Shown here one piece after another: positions 1 through 39,851 of a DNA stretch of 64,000 nucleotides. The translations under genes were made by a program, and so were the position numbers. Each line of letters begins with the position of its first letter. Position 1 is the first letter of the stretch. The stretch comes from a virus (Duplodnaviria > Caudoviricetes): IMG/VR virus record IMGVR_UViG_2667528183_000003, positions 1 to 64,000 of that record; one strand, given 5' to 3'. The notes beneath the pieces are model-generated. The model was not told where the DNA came from. It did not search any database and worked only from the letters and a program-made list of their open reading frames with translations.

Positions 1-351
1 ATGGACGCCGACATGAACAAAGCCGAAATACCGTCTGATCCGACCCAGCGTTGGGAATGGATCAAATACCAATTACGTGCTCGCGGTACATCACTGGCCA
101 AGCTATCTCGCGAGCTGGATGTTTCAGGCCAAGCCCTCAAGAACACAAAGCGCATCGCCTATCCACGTATGGAGAGAGCTATTGCAAAAGCTTTGGGTTT
201 AATGCCAATCGACATCTGGCCCGAGCGCTGGAACACCGATGGTAAGCCTCATCGAATCTGCCCGAACCGTGCAGAACGCAGAGCAGCCAGTAATCAAGAT
301 CATAACTCACTCTATGTCCTTCGACACTGTAAAGCCGTGGCGGGGGTGTGA
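1..351 (+). CDS. ner: Ner/Nlp-family HTH regulator (start could be ATG 13)
   Basis: IKYQLRARGTSLAKLSRE...YPRMERAIAKALG...IWPERW is the Ner signature; lies upstream of the transposase. Confidence 0.85.
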   Translation: MDADMNKAEIPSDPTQRWEWIKYQLRARGTSLAKLSRELDVSGQALKNTKRIAYPRMERAIAKALGLMPIDIWPERWNTDGKPHRICPNRAERRAASNQDHNSLYVLRHCKAVAGV

Positions 352-794
352 ACATGCGCCGCGTAAAAGACGACAGGACACTAGACATCTTCTCTGTTCC
401 ACAGCCGGTGCTTTCTATACCTGGCCATGGCAACTACGCCGCGACGGTGAGTGAGCTGGTGAGCGAAATCCTCAAAGGCTCCGAGCTGGACCGTTACGAG
501 ATTGCAGCTCGTATGTCGCGACTTTCAGGTGACGACGTAAGCAAGAACATGCTCGATGCATGGTCGAGTCCCGCCCGTACCGAGCACAACCTTCCTTTAT
601 ATAGGGCGCCATTGCTTGAAGAGGTTTGTGCAACTCACGCGATGACCGACTGGTTGGTGCATCTGCGTGGCGGACGAGTTTCTTACGGTCGCGAAGCACT
701 TGATGCTGAGCTTGGTCGCCTGGAAAGAGTCGCCGCAGACGCTACTCGAAAAGCCCGCGAACTGAAGCGTATGTTAGGGGGCAGCCATGCGTAA
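348..794 (+). CDS. Hypothetical phage early protein
   Basis: 148-aa ORF overlapping both ner and the MuA start. Confidence 0.7.
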   Translation: MNMRRVKDDRTLDIFSVPQPVLSIPGHGNYAATVSELVSEILKGSELDRYEIAARMSRLSGDDVSKNMLDAWSSPARTEHNLPLYRAPLLEEVCATHAMTDWLVHLRGGRVSYGREALDAELGRLERVAADATRKARELKRMLGGSHA

Positions 795-2838
795 TTGGTA
801 TTCCGCCCAGGAACTCGCAGGCCTGCCCGGCTTGCCGAGTACTTCTCGCAACGTTAAGGCAATGGCTGCTCGGGAGAACTGGGAGGGCCAGCAACGACTT
901 GGTAGCAAAGCTGTCGAGTACTCCTTTGCGATGCTGCCGGAGAAAACCCAGGCTGCTCTCATTGCTGCCTCAATTCCCGCCAGTGCACCAGAAGCACCGG
1001 CTGAAACACATGTGATTCTTTCAGGGTGTGACGCTAAAAAAGCGTCACGCTTGAATGATTCGCAGATCTCGGTCATGACGGCACGCCTGTCATTCGTGCG
1101 CGAAATAGAGCGCATGAGCAAGGTGGTCAGCCAGAACCGCGCCATTCTCACACTGGTCTCCCTGGCACGAACCGGCGACCTGAGCCCCTACCTTGCCGAG
1201 CAAGTGGTCCGGGCCAACGACCGCAAAACAGAAGACCGAACACTTTCGGAGCGCACCCTGAAACGGTGGCTGGCGGACTATCGCGCCCATGGGGAAATGG
1301 GACTGGCACCAGCACGCCGCAAACAGGACATGAGCGTCCCGTCTTGGGCTGCCGAGTTCCTGAAGCATTATCAGCGCCCGCAGAAGCCCAGCGTTGAAGC
1401 GGCATACGAGCAGTTCAAACAGATCCATTCAGAGGTCCACTCCAGCGTCTGCCCGAGCATTCACGCCGTCCGCCGCTGGCTGAAAAAGCTGTCTCCAGAG
1501 GCCCGCGAGCGTGGTCGTATGGGGCCGCATGAGCTGAAAACCCTACAGGCGTACAACCGCCGCAAGGCGGACATGCTCTGGCCAAATGATGTCTGGGTTG
1601 CCGATGGTCATACCTTTGACGCCGAGGTTATCAACCCTCTTACCGGCCAGATCTTCCGGCCGGAAATCACCATGATCATTGATTGGGGCACACGCCGAAT
1701 CACCGGTTTTTCGGTCAACCTGGCTGAGTCGACATTGGCCACCTTGGACACATTGCGCGACGGTGTTACCCGCTGCGGCATGTACAAGATTTTCTATGTA
1801 GACAACGGCAGCGGCTTTGATAACGCCGTGGTCTATGAAGCCAATGACCGTCTTGGCGGCACCGTCACGCATTCGCTGCCTTACAACTCCCAAGCCCGTG
1901 GCGTGATTGAACGCCCACACAAAACCATCCTGGTCAGGCTCGCTAAAACCTTCGACAGCTACATCGGCGCCGATATGGACAAGGAGGCCGGAACCAAGGC
2001 CCACAAGCTATCCCGTAAGCAGTTGGCGCTGGGTTTGGCACCAACAGTTGTGCCGGAGTTCTCGGTGTTCTTCGCCGACCTGCAATGCGCACTCGACGAC
2101 TACAACCGGCGCCCACACCGTGGCCTACCGAAGTTCCGCGACCCACAGACGCTGCGCATGCGTCACCAAAGCCCCATGGAAGCCTGGAAACAGGCCGAGG
2201 CCGAAGGCTGGGAGCCATTGCTGGCTGACGCAAGTATCGTTGAAAGCCTGACCCGTCCGCAGGTCCTGCGCACTGCTCGGCGCGCCCAGGTGCAATGGAA
2301 TAGCGGCACCTACTTCCTGAAAGAACTGGAAGGTTTCCATGGCGAGGAAGTCCGCGTGGCCTATGACTTCCGCGACTCCAGCCGTGTATGGGTGCATACC
2401 CTTGATGGCGAGCTGATCGGTGAAGCCATTCTGGATGGCAATGCCAGCCCAGCAATGCCGGTAACGATGCTTGAAAAAGCCAGTGAGAAGCGCGAACGCG
2501 GACAGCTGTCGCGCCTGGTTAAAAAGGCCAAAACCATCACCGGGCAAGACGTTGAAATGCGCGTCATTCCCACGGCATCGAGCAGCTATGAGCTGTCCCC
2601 GGCACAGCTAGCCGAAGCACAACGTTTCGCCCAGCTGGTCGCGCCACAGGCTCCAGCCTTTGAAATCCCCAACGACCCTATTTCCAAGTACCGCCTTTGG
2701 CAGCAGCTCGATGGCCGCGTGAAGGGCGGCGAAGCGCTACCACCCGAGCAAGCCCAGTGGCACGAACGCTGGCCCAAACATTCCGACTACAGCGCGATGC
2801 AGCGGATGTTTGCCCACGCAGAACAAGCCAGAGCCTAA
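787..2838 (+). CDS. MuA-like DDE transposase
   Basis: N-terminal Mu DNA-binding motif WYSAQELAGLPGLP; catalytic motifs VADGHT, YVDNGSG and GVIER; 683 aa. Confidence 0.95.
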   Translation: MRNWYSAQELAGLPGLPSTSRNVKAMAARENWEGQQRLGSKAVEYSFAMLPEKTQAALIAASIPASAPEAPAETHVILSGCDAKKASRLNDSQISVMTARLSFVREIERMSKVVSQNRAILTLVSLARTGDLSPYLAEQVVRANDRKTEDRTLSERTLKRWLADYRAHGEMGLAPARRKQDMSVPSWAAEFLKHYQRPQKPSVEAAYEQFKQIHSEVHSSVCPSIHAVRRWLKKLSPEARERGRMGPHELKTLQAYNRRKADMLWPNDVWVADGHTFDAEVINPLTGQIFRPEITMIIDWGTRRITGFSVNLAESTLATLDTLRDGVTRCGMYKIFYVDNGSGFDNAVVYEANDRLGGTVTHSLPYNSQARGVIERPHKTILVRLAKTFDSYIGADMDKEAGTKAHKLSRKQLALGLAPTVVPEFSVFFADLQCALDDYNRRPHRGLPKFRDPQTLRMRHQSPMEAWKQAEAEGWEPLLADASIVESLTRPQVLRTARRAQVQWNSGTYFLKELEGFHGEEVRVAYDFRDSSRVWVHTLDGELIGEAILDGNASPAMPVTMLEKASEKRERGQLSRLVKKAKTITGQDVEMRVIPTASSSYELSPAQLAEAQRFAQLVAPQAPAFEIPNDPISKYRLWQQLDGRVKGGEALPPEQAQWHERWPKHSDYSAMQRMFAHAEQARA

Positions 2839-2856
2839 CCCCTAAGGAGTTTTCAC

Positions 2857-3579
2857 ATGAGTTTTCCCAAGATTGTTCCACTGACCAACGTTGGCCTGTT
2901 GTCTGCCGCTATCGAACGCGCCCTCAAACGCCCACAGGGGCTGCCCGGTGTTGTCGTGATGCATGGCCCCACCGGCTTGGGCAAAAGCGTTGGCGCTGCC
3001 TTCGCCGCAAACCAGCATCGCGCCTATTACGTCGAGTGCCGCGACACCTGGAGCAAAAAGGCTTTCCTGCAAGCCATCCTGCACGAAATGAGCATCACAC
3101 CTGAACGCACCCTGTCGCTGATGGTGGACCAGATCGCCGAACAACTGTCGCGCAGCGGGCGCCCGCTGCTGATCGATGACGTGCAGTACCTGCTTGAGAA
3201 ATCCATAGCCAACGTTCTGACCGATATCTACAACGCCAGCCAAGGCACCATCGTGTTGATCGGTGAAGAACGAGTGCCTAGCAGCCTGGCCAGGCTGGAG
3301 CGCCTGCATAACCGTGTGCTGGAGTGGGTGCCTGCCCAGCCTGCCACGCTTCACGACATACACGCCTTGGCCCAGGCCAGTTACCCCGGCCTGCACTTCG
3401 CCGACGATCTGCTAGAAGACCTGCGCAAGAAGGTTAAAGGCTGTCTGCGCCGTGTCGCGGTCAACCTGTACCGCGTTTACAACGAAGCCCAAACCCAATG
3501 CTGGGACAAGGTTGACCTTGCGACCTGGGGCCATCGGGAGTGGTTCACCGGCGACGCTCCTGTGCGGAGGGTTTCGTAA
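2857..3579 (+). CDS. MuB-like AAA+ transposition ATPase
   Basis: Walker A GPTGLGKS and Walker B LLIDD; directly follows the transposase; AAGGAG SD. Confidence 0.9.
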   Translation: MSFPKIVPLTNVGLLSAAIERALKRPQGLPGVVVMHGPTGLGKSVGAAFAANQHRAYYVECRDTWSKKAFLQAILHEMSITPERTLSLMVDQIAEQLSRSGRPLLIDDVQYLLEKSIANVLTDIYNASQGTIVLIGEERVPSSLARLERLHNRVLEWVPAQPATLHDIHALAQASYPGLHFADDLLEDLRKKVKGCLRRVAVNLYRVYNEAQTQCWDKVDLATWGHREWFTGDAPVRRVS

Positions 3580-4193
3580 TGGCTGGCGGTCGTGGTCGTA
3601 AACCAATTGATCTGGAAATGCACGGTAAGAAGGGCAATCGCCAGCGTGTCTGGGAGGCTATGCGTGTCATTCGAGATGGCTTTACAGCCTATGAAATCTC
3701 CCGCCGCTCCCTGGTCGATGACACGGCGGTTCGTAGCTACCTGCAATCGCTGATCAAAGGCGGATTTGTCGAGGTTATCTCTGGGGCCAAGTTTGAAGAA
3801 CAGACATTACACCTGGTCAGGGACGTGGGCGCCGAAGCTCCAGCAATCACTCGCGAAGGAAAACCCAGCAAGACGGGCAAAGGCACCGAAGCCATGTGGC
3901 GAACCCTGCGCATCCTGGGCGAAATGGACGCCGACGAGCTGGCTGAACAAGCCTCTATCGCAGTGCCGACCACGACCTGGACAGCGCGTTCCTACCTCAA
4001 GTGGCTAAAACGTGCGGGTTATGTAGTCGAAGTGCAGGCCAGTACACCGGGCAAGAAAGCCCGATACCGCCTAGCTCCAGGCAAATACACCGGCCCGCGC
4101 CCACCGATGATTCAGCGCATCGGTCAGGTGTTCGACCCGAATCTCGGCGAGGTGGTGTTTCGCCAGCCCGAACCAGCTGAGGCCGAACTATGA
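3579..4193 (+). CDS. Putative winged-helix DNA-binding protein
   Basis: TAATG coupling to MuB; two wHTH-like repeats (VRSYLQSLIKGGFV and ARSYLKWLKRAGYV). Confidence 0.7.
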   Translation: MAGGRGRKPIDLEMHGKKGNRQRVWEAMRVIRDGFTAYEISRRSLVDDTAVRSYLQSLIKGGFVEVISGAKFEEQTLHLVRDVGAEAPAITREGKPSKTGKGTEAMWRTLRILGEMDADELAEQASIAVPTTTWTARSYLKWLKRAGYVVEVQASTPGKKARYRLAPGKYTGPRPPMIQRIGQVFDPNLGEVVFRQPEPAEAEL

Positions 4194-4567
4194 ACGTGAA
4201 TCTATCGGCCTGGGGCGCTGAGCCTCCACTGTTTGTACGTTTGCTGGCAGCCGAAGTCGCAGCCACAAGCCAAACCCAGGCCAGCAAGCGTATCGGCATG
4301 AGCCGAACAGCAGTCAGCCTGACCCTGGCCAATCGCTATGCATCGCGTAGCACTGCCGGTGTTGAACGCCGTGTCATGGAAACCCTCGGCCGCATTCAGT
4401 GTGTGGCTCTGGATGATGAAGTGAACGCGGAGCAGTGCCAAAGCTATCGCGAAAAACCAGCCCCCACACACAACCCACCTGCCATGCAGCGATGGCGTGC
4501 TTGCCAACATTGCCCGATCAACCCCAACTGCTGCACCCAGGAGAACGCCCATGCTCGCCTCCACTAG
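4190..4567 (+). CDS. HTH protein with Cys-rich C-terminus
   Basis: SQTQASKRIGMSRTAVSL helix-turn-helix; ACQHCP motif; ATGA overlap. Confidence 0.7.
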   Translation: MNVNLSAWGAEPPLFVRLLAAEVAATSQTQASKRIGMSRTAVSLTLANRYASRSTAGVERRVMETLGRIQCVALDDEVNAEQCQSYREKPAPTHNPPAMQRWRACQHCPINPNCCTQENAHARLH

Positions 4568-4874
4568 CCGTACAGCCTTGAAAGTGTTGACCCCATCGCT
4601 CGCTGATCGCCTGCGCATCTTCAACGCCGCCGCCCGCCAGTTGCAGGCGAATGGCATTCGCATACTCGGCTTCTGCCCAGCTCAAAACTTCCTGGTTATC
4701 GATCCCGATGCGGGCCAGCGCTTGGTCGCTCTTGGCCATCGCGAAGGCTTTAAGCGCCGCCCCACGGCCGGTAGCACCCATTACAGCGTGCAGTTCCAGG
4801 GCGTGACCCTGGAGTGGCGCGAACCCATCAGCGCCGCCCGTCCAGAAGGCTGGCAGCGCCCGACTGTCCACTGA
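4551..4874 (+). CDS. Hypothetical early protein
   Basis: ATG 4551 with AGGAG SD; 107 aa. Confidence 0.65.
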   Translation: MLASTSRTALKVLTPSLADRLRIFNAAARQLQANGIRILGFCPAQNFLVIDPDAGQRLVALGHREGFKRRPTAGSTHYSVQFQGVTLEWREPISAARPEGWQRPTVH

Positions 4875-4885
4875 GGAATCTAGCA

Positions 4886-5509
4886 ATGACCGTTCAACAA
4901 CAGACCATCCCTGAAGGCTACCGGGCCGACGCTCAAAAGCGCCTTATCCCTGAAAGCATGATCAAACCCATCGACCTGGAGCGTGACGCCTTGGTGCTCG
5001 CCCTGGTCGAAAAAGCGCGTGCGGCCCATGACGTTTTGTCGAAGTTCAAGGCTTCCGCGTTCGGCGATATCGAAGCCTTTATCGAACTGAGCGCCGAACA
5101 GTACGGCGCTCAGATTGGCGGCAAGAAAGGCAATGTCAGCCTGATCAGTTTTGATGGGCGCTTCAAGATCCTGCGGGCAGTCCAGGAAAGCATCGCCTTT
5201 GACGAACGCTTGCAGGCAGCCAGGGCACTGATTGACGAATGTTTGCGCGACTGGACAGAAGGGGCTCGGCCGGAGGTCGTCACCCTGGTGAATGACGCCT
5301 TTCGCACCGACCAGAAAGGCGATATCCGCACGGCCCGAGTGCTTGCACTGCGGCGACTGGAAATCACCGATGAGCGCTGGCAGCGCGCCATGCAAGCCAT
5401 TGGCGATGCATGCCAGGTGGTGGGTTCAAAGTCCTACATTCGTGTGTATCAGCGTGTCGGTGATACCGACCAATACGAACCCATCAGCCTTGATATTGCG
5501 GGGGTATGA
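4886..5509 (+). CDS. DUF3164-like Mu-phage early protein
   Basis: GGKKGNVSLISFDG, FDERLQAARALIDECL and SKSYIRVY motifs; GAGGA SD. Confidence 0.8.
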   Translation: MTVQQQTIPEGYRADAQKRLIPESMIKPIDLERDALVLALVEKARAAHDVLSKFKASAFGDIEAFIELSAEQYGAQIGGKKGNVSLISFDGRFKILRAVQESIAFDERLQAARALIDECLRDWTEGARPEVVTLVNDAFRTDQKGDIRTARVLALRRLEITDERWQRAMQAIGDACQVVGSKSYIRVYQRVGDTDQYEPISLDIAGV

Positions 5510-5859
5510 CTATGCAAGAAGATAACAGCCTGATCCTGGATCAGTTGGAACGCCTCGGCACTCTTGAGCGCGTTTGTGAGGGGCTAACCCAAGATCACAT
5601 TGAAGGCGGCTGGACCGTTCGCGGAATCAGGGTTCACTGCAAAGCGGTTGAGCAAGAGCGTGACGATCTGCGTAGCCAGTTGGTGGAGCTTGAAAAGTTC
5701 GGTGAATGGTGGAAGGAGCGTATGCGAACCCATCTGACCATCATTTATGGAGCTATCGGTAAGTCAGACCCGGAGGGTTGTGCAGACCAGACGGTAAGGC
5801 TTGATGAGCGTCTGGCTCCACAGATTACAGCCTCTTACTCCAGCACAAAGCCGCAATAG
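5506..5859 (+). CDS. Hypothetical protein
   Basis: ATGA overlap with the upstream gene; 117 aa. Confidence 0.6.
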   Translation: MTMQEDNSLILDQLERLGTLERVCEGLTQDHIEGGWTVRGIRVHCKAVEQERDDLRSQLVELEKFGEWWKERMRTHLTIIYGAIGKSDPEGCADQTVRLDERLAPQITASYSSTKPQ

Positions 5860-5895
5860 ACCAGACAGCTCCGCACACATTATTTACAGGAAACT

Positions 5896-6111
5896 ATGAT
5901 GGCCAAAATTGTCCTTACCCTGGAAGACCGCCGCGACGAAAGCGGCGCTCCGACAGTCACTCTTGACCTGTCTGGTGTGCCCACTGGTGCAGCTCACCGA
6001 TCCGCAGCCTGCTCCATCTCCCAAATGCTTTGGGGGATGGCCTCTTGCGAGCAGCTCCTGGGCGAGCTGCCTGCGTACCGTCGTCAGCCAAGTAACTCAA
6101 CCATCCACTGA
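5896..6111 (+). CDS. Hypothetical protein whose stop codon abuts hammerhead 1
   Basis: CAGGA SD; 71 aa. Confidence 0.65.
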   Translation: MMAKIVLTLEDRRDESGAPTVTLDLSGVPTGAAHRSAACSISQMLWGMASCEQLLGELPAYRRQPSNSTIH

Positions 6112-6176
6112 GCGAAACCCTCCCGGTCTCCGGGAGGGTCTATCAGGCGTGGCTACCTGGTACTGATGAGCAGCCG
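6112..6176 (+). ncRNA. Type II hammerhead ribozyme 1; predicted cleavage after C6140
   Basis: GC-GAAA(6114-17); stem III ccctcccgg/ccgggaggg; GUC(6138-40); stem I tatcagg/cctggta; CUGAUGA(6163-69)-GC; loop I UGGCU can pair with 3' AGCCG. Confidence 0.88.
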
Positions 6177-6196
6177 AACAGTAAGTGGGGAATTTT

Positions 6197-6394
6197 ATGA
6201 GCAAGCAACGAAAACCATATCCACGGTCTGCGGACAACGCCGACAAGATGAATCTGCCCGAGGGTAAGACCTGCGGCGACTGCGTGCACTGCCGCCGCTG
6301 CACGATGATGTTCGGACACATCCCAGCTGATGAAGCTTGCGACTGGAGCCCTTCGCGTTTTCGCGAAGCAGTGCCAAACGCGATTGTTGTCTAA
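6197..6394 (+). CDS. Small Cys-rich protein, 65 aa (CxxC-xx-CxxC...C)
   Basis: KTCGDCVHCRRC...EACDW; GGGGAA SD; first gene after hammerhead 1. Confidence 0.7.
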   Translation: MSKQRKPYPRSADNADKMNLPEGKTCGDCVHCRRCTMMFGHIPADEACDWSPSRFREAVPNAIVV

Positions 6395-6425
6395 CCCAAA
6401 ACGTAAGACTCCGAGACCTGACGAA

Positions 6426-7097
6426 ATGGATCACAGCAAAGCTATAGACAAAATCAAGAAGCTTCTGCGCCTGGCAGCAAGCGACAACCCCCACGAAGCC
6501 GCAGCGGCTATGCGCCAGGCGCGGGCCATGATGGAAAAATTCCGTATTGAAGAAGCTGATGTAGCGCTTTCGGACATCTTTGAATCGGCCTCACGCAGCG
6601 GCTCTAAGGTGAATCCTGTTCGCTGGGAGGCCAATCTGGCTGGCAGCGTAAAACGTGCGTATGCCTGCGAGTTGCTGTTCATGGCGGGCTTAGGTGAATG
6701 GCGGTTCATTGGTGAGTTTGCCGAGGTGGCCAGCTACACCATGACGCTGCTTCTCCGTCAGATCCGCCAGGCTCGGCGTGACTTCATCGCCGACAAACTC
6801 AAGCGCTGCAAGGCCGCAACCAAGACCAAACGGGCGGACGTATTCTGTGATGCCTGGGTCTATCAGGTGCGCAAGCAGGTGATGGCTTTCGCTGGCAATG
6901 ACACACCATCCAGCGCCGCTTCGGCCTACATGCTCAAGCATCACCCGGATACAACAAAGGCAGACCCGAAGGACCGGAACACCGCAAAGCGGATGAGCAA
7001 TCGGTCCGTGAGCGATGCCATGCACGGGATTCTCGCAGCGGCTGACGTACAGCTGAACCACGGTGTGAAAGGACAAGAGCAGCAACGCCTCCACTGA
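6426..7097 (+). CDS. DUF2786-domain protein
   Basis: N-terminal KAIDKIKKLLRLAASDNPHEAAAAMRQARAMMEKF helical motif; stop codon abuts hammerhead 2. Confidence 0.8.
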   Translation: MDHSKAIDKIKKLLRLAASDNPHEAAAAMRQARAMMEKFRIEEADVALSDIFESASRSGSKVNPVRWEANLAGSVKRAYACELLFMAGLGEWRFIGEFAEVASYTMTLLLRQIRQARRDFIADKLKRCKAATKTKRADVFCDAWVYQVRKQVMAFAGNDTPSSAASAYMLKHHPDTTKADPKDRNTAKRMSNRSVSDAMHGILAAADVQLNHGVKGQEQQRLH

Positions 7098-7164
7098 GCG
7101 AAACCTCCCCGATGAACTGGGGCGGTCTGCCAGGCATGGTTGCCTGGTACTGATGAGCAGCCAC
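7098..7164 (+). ncRNA. Type II hammerhead ribozyme 2; predicted cleavage after C7127
   Basis: GC-GAAA(7100-03); stem III cc(t)ccccg/tgggg(c)gg; GUC(7125-27); stem I tgccagg/cctggta; CUGAUGA(7150-56)-GC; loop I UGGU can pair with 3' GCCA. Confidence 0.86.
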
Positions 7165-7166
7165 AG

Positions 7167-7445
7167 ATGACAGACGAAACACCCCGGCAGCGTAAAGCCC
7201 GTTTGGCCCGTGAGCGCAAACGTGCCCAGCGCCTGCGGGACAAGGCCAAGAAACTGGCCATGGGTTCCAGCACGTTCAAGATGGAAGCGTACAAAGGCAC
7301 ACTGGCCGAGCTTGAACGTATCCGTATCGCCGGGGAGTTCGACGAAGCGGCGCACGCGCTGACGATGGTCATTCACGGAGCAGCCGAGTTGTCTCGCCGA
7401 GATCCGGCGGCATTCAGGGCATTGATTCAAGGGAGAACAAAGTGA
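7167..7445 (+). CDS. Basic helical hypothetical protein
   Basis: ATG 7167 directly after hammerhead 2; TPRQRKARLARERKRAQR. Confidence 0.65.
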   Translation: MTDETPRQRKARLARERKRAQRLRDKAKKLAMGSSTFKMEAYKGTLAELERIRIAGEFDEAAHALTMVIHGAAELSRRDPAAFRALIQGRTK

Positions 7446-7855
7446 GCAGACGAAACCTGGATCTGAGCAAGATTCACATAGCAAAGAAGGACCTAGGGCT
7501 TGATGACGAAACCTATCGCGCGCTGCTGGTTCGCGTGGCCGGGGTCAGATCGGCAAAGGACCTAAGCCCGCGTCAAGCAGGCAAGGTGCTGGCCGAGTTT
7601 GAGCGGCTTGGCTGGAAGCCTTCCCCCGTCAAGACTGGTCGTAAGGCTCCGGTAGCAGCAGCGGGCAGAGCAAAATTAATCGGTAAGATTGAGGCGTTTC
7701 TCAGCGAGGCGAATCGTTCCTGGGCATATGCCGATGGCATGGCCCAGCGTATGTTCAAGGTCGAGCGTGTGGAATGGTTGGACCCTGAACAACTTCGCAA
7801 GATGGTTGCAGCATTGGCTTATGACGCCAAGCGCCACGGGAGAGCAGCACAATGA
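7442..7855 (+). CDS. gemA: GemA/gp16-family protein (DUF1018)
   Basis: KIHIAKKDLGLDDETYRALL...GVRSAKDLS motif; lies upstream of mor as in Mu. Confidence 0.85.
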   Translation: MSRRNLDLSKIHIAKKDLGLDDETYRALLVRVAGVRSAKDLSPRQAGKVLAEFERLGWKPSPVKTGRKAPVAAAGRAKLIGKIEAFLSEANRSWAYADGMAQRMFKVERVEWLDPEQLRKMVAALAYDAKRHGRAAQ

Positions 7856-8289
7856 GCGGAGAACTATTTCCAGACGACAGCGACGAACTCGACTCCGCCA
7901 AAGTCCTGGCGCACATGAAGGACCCGACGGTCCTGGCCAGATGGGAGGGAGTACTCGGCGACATGGTTAGAGTGGCCGAAGCTGAATTGCGTAAGGCGTT
8001 AAATAATGACCCGCGCTCGACAGAGTTAGCACAGTTGGTCATCTATACCGTATGCGAACACCTGGGCGGCGGCGTGATGTACTTGCCTAGCGGTGCTCGA
8101 CTAAAACGTGCCATGCGTGATGCTGACTTGTACAGGGATTGGCGTGACCACGGCATTAAACCTGCCGATCTGGTTGGAAAATACAAGCTATCCAGCCCAA
8201 CTGTTTATGACATTATCACCAGGCAACGGGCGCTGCACCGCAAAAACGAGCCCGACCTGTTTGGATTTGGCGAAGATACTTTGCATTAG
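7852..8289 (+). CDS. Mor/C-family transcription activator
   Basis: LGGGVMYLP...RDADLY...LVGKYKLSSPTVYDII motif. Confidence 0.85.
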   Translation: MSGELFPDDSDELDSAKVLAHMKDPTVLARWEGVLGDMVRVAEAELRKALNNDPRSTELAQLVIYTVCEHLGGGVMYLPSGARLKRAMRDADLYRDWRDHGIKPADLVGKYKLSSPTVYDIITRQRALHRKNEPDLFGFGEDTLH

Positions 8290-8303
8290 CAAAAGGAATA
8301 TAC

Positions 8304-8786
8304 ATGCGTTCAATTCTGCTTTGGCTATTTGTGATTTTCAGTACTCAGTCTTTTGCCGCTGATCTTGGGAATTATGATCATTTGATAGATGGTCTATCTG
8401 ATTATCAATTTGATATGCGTCCGGCAGCACCTGGTAGAACCCCTGGTCTGGTGGGAAAGCAAAGGATGATGGGGATGACCAAGGATGAGAAGCCCCCATC
8501 AATGCTTGAAGTAATCGGGGTAAATCTGAATCGAGCTGTTGAAAAGGTAACCTTGGACGTTTCTGTCACTGACGTGGAGAAGCAGCAAAGGAAGAGAGCG
8601 AAGTTAATCAAAGCTTTTGTTGACCTGCTCTTGCCGGAAGTACCGAACCGTAAAGACTTGATCGTGCAGGCCATGGAGGCCGCCGTTCCTGACAAGACAG
8701 TAACGATGAATTTAGGAGAAAAACGACTTACTGTCCGACGCAGCATTACCACTAACAGCTTTGTCTTCACCATTGAATCAACTTGA
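8304..8786 (+). CDS. Exported protein of unknown function (moron)
   Basis: Signal peptide MRSILLWLFVIFSTQSFA; visibly AT-richer than its neighbours; AAGGA SD. Confidence 0.7.
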   Translation: MRSILLWLFVIFSTQSFAADLGNYDHLIDGLSDYQFDMRPAAPGRTPGLVGKQRMMGMTKDEKPPSMLEVIGVNLNRAVEKVTLDVSVTDVEKQQRKRAKLIKAFVDLLLPEVPNRKDLIVQAMEAAVPDKTVTMNLGEKRLTVRRSITTNSFVFTIEST

Positions 8787-8823
8787 TTGTATCTAGTTAC
8801 ACACCTCTCACTGAGCAAGCTTA

Positions 8824-8874
8824 AAAACCTTAAGCCGCCCTGAAATTACAACTTTCCGCTTCTTGCGCGAACCT
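8824..8874 (+). promoter_or_regulatory. Putative Mor/C-activated late promoter (Plys-like)
   Basis: AAAACCTTAAGCCGCCCTGAAATTAC box also found at 17733 and 28773; weak -10 at the same offset. Confidence 0.7.
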
Positions 8875-8906
8875 GACCCCGTTATCCCCGACGGCAGGTT
8901 CGCACC

Positions 8907-9254
8907 ATGCGTTCAAATCCCGCTCCACCCAAAGTCTCACGGCCTCAATGGCCGCGCCAACATGCGCAGCTCATTCTTGCGGCTGGGAGTAACAACGCCC
9001 GTGCGGTGTTGTGGGCCAAGGTGCCAGCCGACTGGCTACCCATGGTCCAGGCGCATGTAGAGCAGGGCGAAGAGCGCATCCGACAAGCAGTCAGCCAGCG
9101 AGAGAAGTTACGCCCCGCTGTAAGAACACACTCTGCACAGACCTTTGCCGACTACCGCGAGCCTGCTCGCGTGATCGGTAATCCCGTTGTCGCCGCGCAA
9201 CATCTGGCCGCTTTACGGGCATCCATCCATCACCCACCGCGAGTAACCCAATGA
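8907..9254 (+). CDS. Hypothetical protein, first late gene
   Basis: 115 aa; ATGA overlap with the holin. Confidence 0.6.
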   Translation: MRSNPAPPKVSRPQWPRQHAQLILAAGSNNARAVLWAKVPADWLPMVQAHVEQGEERIRQAVSQREKLRPAVRTHSAQTFADYREPARVIGNPVVAAQHLAALRASIHHPPRVTQ

Positions 9255-9544
9255 CTCTTCCACTGCCGAAGCGGCGCCCGCGTGCGCCACGTATGACCGA
9301 CTGGACGTTGATCACCATCGCCTTGCTGTTCTGCCTGGCCATCGTCGCCCCGACCAAGCTGCCGGTTGTCCTCTACAAATGCGGCCTGGTCACCCTGGGC
9401 GGCGTCCTGGGCTACTGGATTGACCGAGCATTGTTTCCCTACGCTCGGCCGAACCAGGTCCGCCGCTATGAACGCTCCATGGCCGGTGTCCGTCGTGCCC
9501 TGGTCGTGCTGGCTTGTGTGCTCGGCCTGACGCTGGGGCTCTGA
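9251..9544 (+). CDS. Holin
   Basis: 97 aa with three hydrophobic segments; GYWIDRALFPYARP motif; precedes the endolysin. Confidence 0.8.
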   Translation: MTLPLPKRRPRAPRMTDWTLITIALLFCLAIVAPTKLPVVLYKCGLVTLGGVLGYWIDRALFPYARPNQVRRYERSMAGVRRALVVLACVLGLTLGL

Positions 9545-39140: not shown

Positions 39141-39150
39141 GGGTGCCCCA

Positions 39151-39174
39151 TAAAAAAGCCCGCACATGGCGGGC
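39151..39174 (-). terminator. Terminator between baseplate and fibre genes
   Basis: GCCCGC-CATGT-GCGGGC-TTTTTT on the minus strand. Confidence 0.6.
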
Positions 39175-39194
39175 CTGGATTCGAGTGGTGGGTT

Positions 39195-39851
39195 TCAATT
39201 GGTAATGCGATACCAAATCGTCGTACCGTAAGGCTTGGTCGCCTCTATGGCGGCTACGATGTCTGCGTCAGAGACTTCTGGGAAAAGCTGGGATGCCGGC
39301 AGCAGGCCACTTGTCATCGAAAGGCCAAACCAGTTAGTGGCAATACCAGGCCAATTCGCCGCGCCGTTGCCAGTTGGACGATAAGCTGTGATAAAGGCTT
39401 GATACGGGCAACTGGTTGAGCCGAGCGGGCCCGCTACGCCAAGCCCTAGGGTCAACCCAAGACAGCCGCAATCGTCGGGCTTGGCGGGCTCAATGATCAG
39501 CGGGCGACGCCCAGTCAGATCAAATAGCACCTGATCTATGCCGCGCCTGGTTGCCCGCTCTCTGAAGATGTTGATCAGGATTCGATTGCGATAACTGGTA
39601 TCAGACTGGTTTGCGTACCGGATCAGCCCATTCCCGAAGAAGTCCAGCCCAATGATGTCGAGCCAGCCATCCGTAGCAGTCTTGATGCGCGTCTGGTCCT
39701 TCGCGTACAGGTATAGGGTGAACCCCCACGAAAGTGCTTGCGCGTAACCCCACAGCAGCGCATCGCGGATTGGGTTGTTGTCACCGAACCACCCGAAAGG
39801 AAGCAGGCTTTTCAGCCGTTCGAACATGTCGCCTTGGTCACCAACGCTCAT
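39195..39851 (-). CDS. Baseplate wedge protein
   Basis: RIKTATDGWLD...DTSYRNRI motif; lies between J and the fibre. Confidence 0.75.
   Translation of the reverse strand: MSVGDQGDMFERLKSLLPFGWFGDNNPIRDALLWGYAQALSWGFTLYLYAKDQTRIKTATDGWLDIIGLDFFGNGLIRYANQSDTSYRNRILINIFRERATRRGIDQVLFDLTGRRPLIIEPAKPDDCGCLGLTLGLGVAGPLGSTSCPYQAFITAYRPTGNGAANWPGIATNWFGLSMTSGLLPASQLFPEVSDADIVAAIEATKPYGTTIWYRITN

What the first reader, a model, noticed from the sequence alone, without database searches (positions are those of the whole stretch)
6112..7164. Two intact type II hammerhead ribozymes inside the early operon of a Mu-like prophage
Seen: two ~65-nt repeats (6112-6176 and 7098-7164), each with the full hammerhead core in type II order: GC-GAAA, stem III, GUC, stem I, CUGAUGA-GC. 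Stem III differs in sequence between copies but stays paired. Stem I keeps pairing through changes (A-U to G-U, U-G to C-G). In both copies loop I can pair with the 3' tail (UGGCU/AGCCG; UGGU/GCCA), a pseudoknot that would stabilise the 2-bp stem II. Established: this is the canonical hammerhead core, and pseudoknotted type II hammerheads are known from some prophages with unclear function. Inference: the early mRNA self-cleaves after 6140 and 7127, cutting the operon into separately regulated pieces upstream of gemA and mor.
Basis: partly seen in the sequence, partly recalled or inferred. Interest (0 to 1): 0.9.

Follow-up and report, generated by a model that had tools for sequence, protein, structure and literature searches.

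The report
Two hammerhead ribozymes in Mu-like prophage
Two textbook type II hammerhead self-cleaving RNAs fill two gene junctions in the early operon of a Mu-like prophage; they look real, but this arrangement has been in print since 2011 and its purpose is still unknown.

Summary
Rfam's Hammerhead_II model (RF02276, cut-off 37 bits) hits window 6110-6179 (68.3 bits) and 7096-7166 (65.2 bits) on the + strand. These are the only two hits in the 7.4-Mb genome. The predicted cuts fall after C6140 and C7127.

Pfam confirms a Mu-like early operon: MuA, MuB-like ATPase, DUF3164, GemA and Mor. Each ribozyme starts at the upstream stop codon and ends just before the next start codon.

The same layout recurs in relatives:
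- 54 of 56 viral loci holding the 92-aa downstream gene have a hammerhead at its start.
- All 49 loci with close DUF2786 homologues have one nearby.
- 150 aligned copies covary in all variable stems and in the pseudoknot.

This is a known kind. Perreault et al. 2011 described type II hammerheads, the pseudoknot and arrays flanking prophage genes. A later paper's introduction records the Mu-like association.

Cleavage of these two copies is inferred, not shown; no usable RNA data exist. My mechanism is intercistronic processing that leaves hairpin-capped fragments. Interest is low to moderate.

The parts
6110..6179 (+). Hammerhead ribozyme type II, copy 1 (HH1). The predicted cut is between C6140 and U6141. 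The pseudoknot pairs 6150-6154 with 6172-6176.
   Evidence: RF02276, 68.3 bits against a cut-off of 37; own model R1, 78.2 bits; sequence read; MFE fold.
7096..7166 (+). Hammerhead ribozyme type II, copy 2 (HH2). The predicted cut is between C7127 and U7128. The pseudoknot pairs 7137-7141 with 7159-7163.
   Evidence: RF02276, 65.2 bits; R1, 82.6 bits.
5896..6111 (+). 71-aa ORF whose TGA stop (6109-6111) abuts the first base of HH1 stem II.
   Evidence: ORF list; no Pfam or PHROG hit; stop position read.
6197..6394 (+). 65-aa Cys-rich ORF (phrog_10154), the first gene of the ribozyme-bounded cassette. It has its own GGGGAA Shine-Dalgarno-like stretch.
   Evidence: homologues sit in the same place in L009, L059 and L128.
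6426..7097 (+). 223-aa DUF2786/DUF7168 protein (phrog_421), the second gene of the cassette. Its TGA stop (7095-7097) abuts HH2.
   Evidence: Pfam PF10979 and PF23771; phrog_421.
7167..7445 (+). 92-aa ORF (phrog_4093). Its ATG starts 3 nt after the HH2 pseudoknot tail, and no canonical Shine-Dalgarno lies between.
   Evidence: In 54 of 56 loci holding a homologue, a full hammerhead ends at the gene's start.
7442..8289 (+). gemA (7442-7855) and mor (7852-8289), the distal end of the early operon.
   Evidence: Pfam PF06252 GemA, 1.9e-29; PF08765 Mor, 9.8e-18.
787..3579 (+). Mu-type transposase A (787-2838) and a MuB-like AAA ATPase (2857-3579), the proximal early operon on the same strand.
   Evidence: Pfam PF02316, PF09299 and PF13401. 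No promoter-like or terminator-like signal above shuffles in 1-9500.
6141..7127 (+). 987-nt RNA segment that double cleavage would release, with a 5'-OH and a 2',3'-cyclic phosphate end. It carries the two cassette genes.
   Evidence: Inference from the two cleavage sites.

Best explanation
Both elements are genuine type II hammerhead ribozymes that each occupy a whole intergenic gap of the Mu-like early operon.

Proposed mechanism. When the long early transcript is made, each ribozyme folds: stem III hairpin, stem I hairpin, 2-bp stem II, and a pseudoknot between loop I and the 3' tail. It then cuts itself 3' of C17, after 6140 and after 7127. Because the topology is type II, the cut splits the ribozyme between the two products.
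- The upstream mRNA keeps its stop codon. It ends 29-30 nt later in the GC-rich stem III hairpin, one nucleotide from a 2',3'-cyclic phosphate end.
- The downstream mRNA begins with a 5'-OH directly at the first pair of the stem I hairpin. The ribosome binding site and start codon follow.

The operon is thus cut into three pieces: A/B and the accessory genes; the Cys-ORF plus DUF2786 cassette; and the 92-aa ORF with gemA and mor. The stability and translation of each piece no longer depend on its neighbours. In this sense the elements act as natural intercistronic insulators. For HH2, the purine-rich core (GAUGAG) is the only Shine-Dalgarno-like stretch before the ATG, so cleavage and product release may also free it for translation.

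What is shown and what is inferred. Shown: family membership, structure, conservation and placement. Inferred: cleavage of these two copies, the protective effect of the ends, and any effect on translation. I put about 0.9 on the elements being active ribozymes and about 0.55 on the insulation/stability role.
For: Membership and structure: RF02276 at 68.3 and 65.2 bits against a cut-off of 37, with an intact core. On 150 aligned relatives, 98.0% of cells are paired against 73.3% in shuffles, and the covariation score is 0.571 against 0.160 (0 of 500 shuffles reach it). Pseudoknot pair 80-111 reads GC 130, CG 9, AU 6, GU 3, UA 1, other 1.

Placement at gene junctions: 135 of 163 distinct copies have an upstream ORF stop within -8..+3 of the ribozyme's first G. 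137 of 163 have an ATG-ORF start within 24 nt after GAGCAGC. 118 of 163 have both, against 2.4% at 3260 random same-strand positions.

Anchoring on proteins rather than on the RNA: 54 of 56 loci with a homologue of the 92-aa ORF have a full hammerhead at the gene start. 54 of 80 DUF2786 loci have one, including all 49 with 51% identity or more.

Hairpins: stem III has a median of 9 bp and -14.9 kcal/mol; stem I has a median of 8 bp and -14.0 kcal/mol. The stem I segment is 22 nt in at least 152 of 163 copies.

Operon continuity: no promoter-like or terminator-like signal above shuffles.

[quoted passage not shown] The Agrobacterium ones also cleaved in E. coli, and the processing idea is stated there (PMC3088659, passages). 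The 2019 review repeats it as unproven (PMC6765202, passages).
Against: No cleavage data exist for these two copies. Every run found is kept as assembled contigs, which cannot show RNA ends.

HH2 stem III has a U.C mismatch. HH1 stem I alone is weak, at -6.8 kcal/mol.

The ribozymes are dispensable in some relatives. Phage JBD24 and loci L184 and L185 lack the second copy; they have a 12-nt spacer with what looks like a remnant. One contig (seen as L195 and L167) keeps only the 5' half of the first copy.

The downstream gene is not constant: 74 clusters among the 155 of 163 copies that have a downstream ORF. No single gene therefore explains the ribozymes.

The protective role of 5'-OH, flush 5' hairpins and cyclic-phosphate 3' ends in proteobacteria is recalled textbook knowledge, not tested here.

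Most of the 163 copies were gathered with a pattern that fixes the core, so core conservation in that set is partly by ascertainment.
Confidence: 0.6

Rival explanations
1. Excision and ligation. The two cuts release the 987-nt two-gene RNA (6141-7127) with 5'-OH and 2',3'-cyclic phosphate ends. These ends are joined into a circular mRNA, either by the hammerhead back-reaction or by a host RtcB-type ligase. Alternatively the flanking pieces are spliced together.
For: The geometry allows it: two same-strand ribozymes bracket a cassette, an arrangement repeated in many relatives. Perreault et al. name this possibility (PMC3088659, passage).
Against: Perreault et al. state they could not detect spliced or circular products (data not shown). 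Many relatives carry a single hammerhead only, for example JBD24 and about 15 of the 56 loci; these cannot excise anything. No complementary sequence is seen that would bring the two ends together. RtcB chemistry is recalled, not tested.
Confidence: 0.05
2. Destabilising switch. Cleavage marks one or both products for rapid decay, as with the glmS ribozyme in Gram-positives. This would turn down transposase or accessory gene expression once transcripts have been made.
For: Self-cleavage followed by RNase attack is an established regulatory route for glmS (PMC6765202, passage). The ribozymes sit right after the A/B-accessory block.
Against: Both products end in stable hairpins flush with the new ends, which argues for protection. 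The 5'-OH-sensing RNase J1 route is known from Gram-positives, while the nearest phage relatives infect Pseudomonas; that RNase J is lacking there is recalled. The upstream ORF always keeps its stop codon, a design that preserves translation.
Confidence: 0.12
3. Selfish or structural repeat. The ~70-nt elements persist mainly as DNA-level recombination joints or hitch-hiking repeats that shuffle gene cassettes among Mu-like phages. RNA cleavage would be incidental.
For: Spacing between the two copies differs among relatives, from about 490 to about 1170 nt. One contig of a relative joins 6175 to 7163, skipping the 987-nt cassette, and has 436 other letters between two hammerhead copies (run X8, record 20). 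Many contigs diverge exactly at the ribozyme's edges (loose ends at 7124/7125 and 7162/7163). Both window copies share 16 identical bases at the 5' edge, including the stop codon.
Against: A DNA joint needs no RNA structure, yet all variable stems and the pseudoknot covary and the catalytic core is kept. Where the element is lost it decays wholesale rather than drifting in the core. Recombination at repeats is better read as a consequence than as the function.
Confidence: 0.12
4. False positives: hammerhead-like sequences that do not cleave.
For: Perreault et al. found some predicted hammerheads to be inactive (PMC3088659, passages). HH2 has a stem III mismatch.
Against: The scores are about 30 bits above the curated threshold, every core position is canonical, and the pairs next to the core are intact. 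The inactive cases in that paper had core deviations or atypical contexts. Here the context is the typical prophage one.
Confidence: 0.05

Closest known systems
Type II hammerhead ribozymes with a loop I/3'-tail pseudoknot (Rfam RF02276; Perreault et al. 2011, PLoS Comput Biol, PMC3088659)
   Same: Identical core, open 2-bp stem II, capped stems I and III, and a 4-5 bp pseudoknot directly after stem II. The Rfam consensus is nearly the same sequence as the window copies. The paper reports that pseudoknot mutants lose activity and that compensatory changes restore it (passages).
   Different: Nothing structural differs. These two copies are simply further members. Their activity has not been assayed.
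Clustered hammerheads flanking genes in prophages (Azorhizobium caulinodans, Agrobacterium tumefaciens ardA array, Clostridium scindens; Perreault et al. 2011, Figure 3, S1-S3)
   Same: Several same-strand ribozymes in a polycistronic phage operon bracket one gene or a short block. The proposed role is cutting long phage RNAs into gene-length mRNAs (passages).
   Different: The bracketed genes differ: here a Cys-rich ORF plus DUF2786/DUF7168, there ardA and others. I could not see the figures or supplements, so I cannot say whether a Mu-like Pseudomonas-type operon is among their examples.
Association of bacterial hammerhead and twister ribozymes with genes of Mu-like phages (stated in the introduction of PMC10085705, citing Roth 2014 and Weinberg 2015)
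   Same: [quoted passage not shown]
   Different: I saw only that sentence. The cited papers were not read, so the exact genes they list are unknown to me.
Pseudomonas transposable phages of the D3112/JBD24 group (Casadabanvirus)
   Same: They are the nearest named relatives of the region: 121 of 130 matching phage records are Pseudomonas phages, at about 72% identity. JBD24 carries a hammerhead (68.1 bits) between gp16 and the DUF2786-like gp17, the same junction as HH1.
   Different: JBD24 lacks the second copy. No paper among the 20 listed that names these phages holds the word 'hammerhead', and Cazares et al. 2014 has 0 occurrences of 'ribozyme'.
Synthetic ribozyme insulators such as RiboJ (recalled; no call)
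   Same: A self-cleaving ribozyme placed before a ribosome binding site removes upstream context and leaves a 5' hairpin on the message. This is the behaviour I infer here.
   Different: RiboJ is engineered, sits in a 5' UTR and is not type II. The resemblance is functional analogy only.

Membership tests
Hammerhead ribozyme type II (Rfam RF02276) | Covariance-model score at or above Rfam's gathering score (37 bits). | tested here: met
   68.3 and 65.2 bits, over the full model 1-66.
Hammerhead ribozyme type II (Rfam RF02276) | Conserved catalytic core: CUGANGA, GAAA, A15.1-U16.1 pair, H17 at the cleavage site. | tested here: met
   CUGAUGA at 6163-6169 and 7150-7156; GAAA at 6114-6117 and 7100-7103; GUC at 6138-6140 and 7125-7127.
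Hammerhead ribozyme type II (Rfam RF02276) | Three helices with standard pairs next to the core (10.1-11.1, 1.1-2.1, 15.1-16.1). This is the acceptance rule in Perreault 2011's methods. | tested here: met
   G-C, U-A and A-U in both copies. The one U.C mismatch in HH2 stem III is internal, not next to the core.
Hammerhead ribozyme type II (Rfam RF02276) | [quoted passage not shown] | tested here: met
   The order is GC-GAAA-stem III-GUC-stem I-CUGAUGA-GC in both copies.
Hammerhead ribozyme type II (Rfam RF02276) | Pseudoknot of 4 or more pairs between loop I and the nucleotides just 3' of stem II. | tested here: met
   5 pairs in each copy. In 150 relatives the four pseudoknot pairs are 96.8% paired, with compensatory changes at two of them. 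Tail columns A-G-C were fixed by my search pattern, so only two tail columns were free to vary.
Hammerhead ribozyme type II (Rfam RF02276) | Site-specific self-cleavage giving 2',3'-cyclic phosphate and 5'-OH ends. | not testable with these tools
   No RNA run with raw reads was found. Contigs cannot show RNA ends.
Clustered prophage hammerheads (Perreault 2011) | Two or more same-strand hammerheads flanking a gene or short gene block inside a phage operon. | tested here: met
   HH1 and HH2 bracket two ORFs within a run of + strand phage genes.
Mu-like transposable prophage, early operon | Mu-type transposase A, a MuB-like ATPase, and GemA and Mor in that order on one strand. | tested here: met
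   PF02316/PF09299, PF13401, PF06252 and PF08765. A terminase large subunit lies further on.

The most novel reading that the evidence does not exclude
The ribozyme pair defines a self-excising expression cassette. The 987-nt RNA (6141-7127) is released with 5'-OH and 2',3'-cyclic phosphate ends. These ends are joined, by the hammerhead back-reaction or a host RtcB-type ligase, into a circular, exonuclease-proof mRNA for the Cys-rich and DUF2786 proteins. At the DNA level, the same ribozyme repeats serve as the joints at which such cassettes are swapped among Mu-like phages.
Probability: 0.05. Interest if true: 0.75.

Novelty: already known. Interest (0 to 1): 0.22.

Why it matters
These two copies add nothing new to ribozyme classification. 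Their value is as a test bed. The biological purpose of phage-borne hammerheads was still called unresolved in the 2019 review (PMC6765202), and my 2015-onward search found no paper that settles it.

This phage group has natural relatives with two, one, or a decayed copy at the same junctions. It also has close kin among well-studied Pseudomonas transposable phages. That makes the question approachable with ordinary phage genetics: does cleavage set mRNA stability, translation of the next gene, or Mor timing?

The junction architecture measured here sharpens the hypothesis to be tested: stop codon, ribozyme, start codon, with a hairpin left on each product.

Tried and rejected
RNA evidence. 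The look-up of sequencing runs listed no RNA holder; there were 9 runs, all kept as contigs, with shares of 0.21 or less. I laid X1, X2, X3 and X8 anyway. No places were reported where molecules begin or end, and the contigs come from relatives in metagenomes. This says nothing about cleavage or expression.

A 5'-flank pseudoknot. I considered that the conserved CCAC before the stop codon pairs with loop I GUGG as an alternative pseudoknot. By eye, copies with the loop variants UAG or UCG (L008, L015, L042, L066) show no matching change in the 5' flank, so I dropped the idea.

A selected His-stop context. 37 of 135 upstream ORFs end in His, against 5.0% of 3446 background ORFs. But these fall in only 6 of 60 protein clusters, so the signal is mostly shared ancestry.

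Promoter or terminator roles. The consensus scan of 1-9500 found nothing above shuffles, and stem III is not followed by a T run.

Literature.
- (hammerhead with D3112, DMS3, Casadabanvirus, transposable phage, JBD24): 93 papers hold at least two terms, 20 were listed, and none of those 20 holds 'hammerhead'.
- Searches (hammerhead, bacteriophage, polycistronic, self-cleavage, mRNA stability; hammerhead ribozymes, Pseudomonas, bacteriophage, intergenic) gave nothing relevant.
- (hammerhead ribozyme plus prophage, 2015 onward): 26 papers, 22 listed, none by title or abstract start on the function of phage hammerheads.
- Supplements are closed. Perreault's Dataset S1 and Figures S1-S3 may already list this phage group.

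Not used: structure prediction, protein-database searches and complex prediction. The open question is about RNA, not protein.
Full report
OBSERVATION. The region was read and the whole window scanned against Rfam 15. Exactly two families' worth of hits reach a gathering score, and both are Hammerhead_II (RF02276, cut-off 37 bits): 6110-6179 at 68.3 bits (E 4.3e-12) and 7096-7166 at 65.2 bits (E 2.8e-11). Both lie on the + strand and cover model positions 1-66. A permissive scan of 1-45000 added only two unrelated sub-threshold hits. The window's 7.38-Mb genome has these two matches and no other, and 14 control genomes gave none.

- The order in both copies is GC, GAAA, stem III hairpin, GUC, stem I hairpin, CUGAUGA, GC. 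This is the type II permutation.
- Cleavage, by the hammerhead rule, falls after C6140 and C7127.
- Stem I differs between copies by two one-sided changes that keep pairing through wobble.
- Stem III differs in sequence. It is 10 bp in copy 1, and 8 bp with one U.C mismatch in copy 2.
- Loop I pairs with the five bases after stem II in both copies (UGGCU/AGCCG; UGGUU/AGCCA).
- MFE folding gives stems III and I for both.

CONTEXT. Pfam and PHROGs give, all on the + strand:
- a transcriptional regulator (348-794);
- Mu transposase A (787-2838);
- a MuB-like AAA ATPase (2857-3579);
- a regulator (3540-4193);
- DUF3164 (4814-5509);
- two small ORFs;
- HH1;
- a 65-aa Cys-rich ORF (6197-6394, phrog_10154);
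- a DUF2786/DUF7168 protein (6426-7097, phrog_421);
- HH2;
- a 92-aa ORF (7167-7445, phrog_4093);
- GemA (7442-7855);
- Mor (7852-8289);
- later, a terminase large subunit.

A consensus scan found no promoter-like or terminator-like signal above shuffles in 1-9500. This fits one long early transcript. So 'Mu-like prophage early operon' is confirmed.

Each ribozyme fills its intergenic gap. The TGA stops at 6109-6111 and 7095-7097 end one base before the first paired G. The ATG at 7167 starts three bases after the HH2 pseudoknot tail.

RELATIVES. blastn against phage records found 130 matching records. Of these, 121 are Pseudomonas phages, at about 72% identity, and none covers 80% of the query. 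The matches begin at the hammerhead.
- Phage JBD24 (Casadabanvirus) has one Hammerhead_II (68.1 bits) between gp16 and its DUF2786-like gp17. An unverified phage scaffold has two.
- In the window's genus, 5 of 150 other genomes have Hammerhead_II. Four have two copies and one has one copy.

Together these gave 163 distinct copies. Of those 163:
- 135 have an upstream ORF of 40 or more codons whose stop ends within -8..+3 of the first G; 98 lie within -1..+1.
- 137 have an ATG-ORF start within 24 nt of GAGCAGC.
- 118 have both, against 2.4% of 3260 random same-strand positions.
- The stem I segment is 22 nt in at least 152.
- The downstream genes fall into 74 clusters. The largest are the 92-aa family (19), DUF2786 (17) and a 138-aa family (17); GemA follows directly in 8.

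The ribozyme is therefore tied to gene junctions in general, and in this lineage to particular ones.

UNBIASED ANCHORING. The 163 copies were found through their core, so I also searched by protein.
- An alignment of the 92-aa family found 56 viral loci. My model R1 finds a full-length hammerhead (71 bits or more) ending at the gene's start in 54 of them.
- The two exceptions, L184 and L185, are like JBD24. They have a 12-nt spacer that still holds what looks like the 3' strand of stem I and a TGATGA fused to the start codon. I read this as loss by deletion; the direction is inferred.
- A DUF2786 alignment found 80 loci, and 54 have a hammerhead. That includes all 49 loci whose protein is 51% or more identical to the window's, and 5 of the 31 more distant ones.
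- Of those, 29 have the ribozyme directly upstream, 22 have it upstream with a small ORF between (as in the window), and 34 have one directly downstream.
- One contig (seen as both L195 and L167) keeps only GCGAAAC plus stem III, followed by TTC and unrelated sequence. This is a decayed copy.

So the element is either kept whole or lost wholesale. I saw no case of a retained element with a drifting core. The caveat is that model-based detection favours intact copies.

COVARIATION. R1 aligned 150 of its 155 matches from 99 sources. On that alignment, with the pseudoknot added by hand:
- 98.0% of cells are standard pairs, against 73.3% in shuffles.
- The covariation score is 0.571 against 0.160 (0 of 500 shuffles reach it). 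Sliding the partners by 1-3 columns drops pairing to 26-41%.
- All 7 stem I pairs and 8 of 10 stem III pairs change on both sides.
- Pseudoknot pair 80-111 is GC 130, CG 9, AU 6, GU 3, UA 1 and unpaired 1.

Two caveats apply. The nested helices were fitted to the model. Three tail columns were fixed by my search pattern. The pseudoknot was not in the model, so its covariation is independent of the fitting.

MECHANISM. What is shown: two canonical, conserved type II hammerheads at two cistron junctions. What follows is inference. Type II topology means the cut divides the ribozyme.
- The upstream product keeps its stop codon, so there is no non-stop translation. It ends in stem III (family median 9 bp, -14.9 kcal/mol) one nucleotide before a 2',3'-cyclic phosphate.
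- The downstream product starts with a 5'-OH at the first pair of stem I (median 8 bp, -14.0 kcal/mol).
- From recalled knowledge of proteobacterial RNA decay: 3' exonucleases need a single-stranded toehold, poly(A) polymerase needs a 3'-OH, and RNase E entry is favoured by an unpaired 5'-monophosphate. Both ends would then be protected. Each segment's fate becomes independent of its neighbours.

A Shine-Dalgarno-like 4-mer lies 3-12 nt before the start in 103 of the 147 copies whose downstream start lies within 40 nt. In 57 of 147 it begins right after the AGCN tail. The ribosome binding site therefore touches the folded ribozyme.

In the 92-aa family no canonical Shine-Dalgarno exists between the tail and the ATG (spacing 4-6 nt in 17 of 18 distinct members). 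The only purine-rich stretch is the core GAUGAG. This suggests, speculatively, that cleavage and product release expose it.

The published view is the same in outline: long phage RNAs are processed into gene-length mRNAs, and this is unproven (PMC3088659; PMC6765202).

RIVALS. I considered four: circularisation or splicing of the 987-nt cassette, a destabilising switch, a mainly DNA-level recombination joint, and inactive look-alikes. They are weighed in their own section.

The contig data bear only on the third. One 1434-nt contig of a relative joins 6175 to 7163, so it lacks the cassette. It also has 436 other letters between two hammerhead copies. The spacing between the two copies varies from about 490 to about 1170 nt among relatives. 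Cassettes between the repeats are evidently exchanged. I read this as a consequence of having two 70-nt direct repeats, not as their function, because RNA-level covariation is strong.

COMPARISON WITH THE KNOWN.
- natural type II hammerheads;
- stem II of two pairs;
- a pseudoknot of four or more pairs to the 3' tail, with mutational proof;
- several hammerheads flanking genes in prophages;
- cleavage products of the expected sizes from in vitro transcription of three such tandem arrays, and in vivo (E. coli) cleavage of the Agrobacterium array.

The introduction of PMC10085705 states that the strongest gene associations of bacterial hammerhead and twister ribozymes are with Mu-like phage genes. 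Phage-centred papers on the Pseudomonas Mu-like group do not mention the ribozyme in what I could search. That is a gap of annotation, not of knowledge. All membership features that can be tested in silico are met; catalysis cannot be tested here.

VERDICT. The kind is already known. The junction statistics, the protein-anchored conservation, the natural loss variants and the split-hairpin argument are modest additions. They make the open functional question more testable but do not change the picture. Interest 0.22.

Noticed in passing
window 6096-6113 and 7082-7099: Both hammerheads are preceded by the same 16 bases (TCCACTGAGCGAAACC, which includes the stop codon). Two unrelated proteins therefore end in (I/L)-His-stop. 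Across relatives, 37 of 135 ORFs ending at a hammerhead end in His, against 5% background. These fall in only 6 of 60 protein clusters, so shared ancestry or duplication of the unit together with its stop codon explains most of it.
   Followed up: partly
L003 4740-4800 (JBD24); L184 and L185 2380-2530: At the DUF2786 / 92-aa-ORF junction these phages have a 12-nt spacer instead of HH2. The spacer retains what looks like the 3' strand of stem I and a TGATGA fused to the start codon. This is a likely deletion scar of a former hammerhead.
   Followed up: partly
L195 2399-2456 = L167 1657-1714 (same IMG/VR contig): A decayed hammerhead. GCGAAAC and stem III are intact, followed by TTC in place of GUC, and there is no stem I or CUGAUGA. 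It scores 15 bits with R1.
   Followed up: partly
L056 (IMG/VR contig of 57 kb), about 2800-6750: An extreme array. Nine pattern matches and 12 R1 matches occur within about 4 kb, roughly one hammerhead between every pair of small genes, each followed by GAGGTG and an ATG.
   Followed up: no
window 6175/7163; run X8 record 20: A contig of a relative (kind of run unknown) joins HH1 to the tail of HH2, skipping the 987-nt cassette. It carries 436 unrelated letters between two hammerhead copies. Many metagenome contigs diverge from the window exactly at the ribozyme's edges. The ribozyme copies behave as mosaic boundaries.
   Followed up: partly
window 7150-7169 and the 92-aa family in 18 loci: The 92-aa ORF family has no canonical Shine-Dalgarno. 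Its ATG lies 4-6 nt after GAGCAGC in 17 of 18 distinct members, so the hammerhead core GAUGAG is the only purine-rich stretch upstream.
   Followed up: no
L026 and L062: These loci hold many weaker type II variants (28-60 bits with R1) with an extra C after stem II (GCCAGCC) and short stem III. They may form a divergent sub-family in other viral contigs.
   Followed up: no
window 39150-39221 (- strand) and 4806-4850 (+ strand): Two sub-threshold Rfam hits: Trp_leader at 29.4 bits against a cut-off of 41, and neisseria_FSE at 26 bits against 50. Both are probably chance.
   Followed up: no
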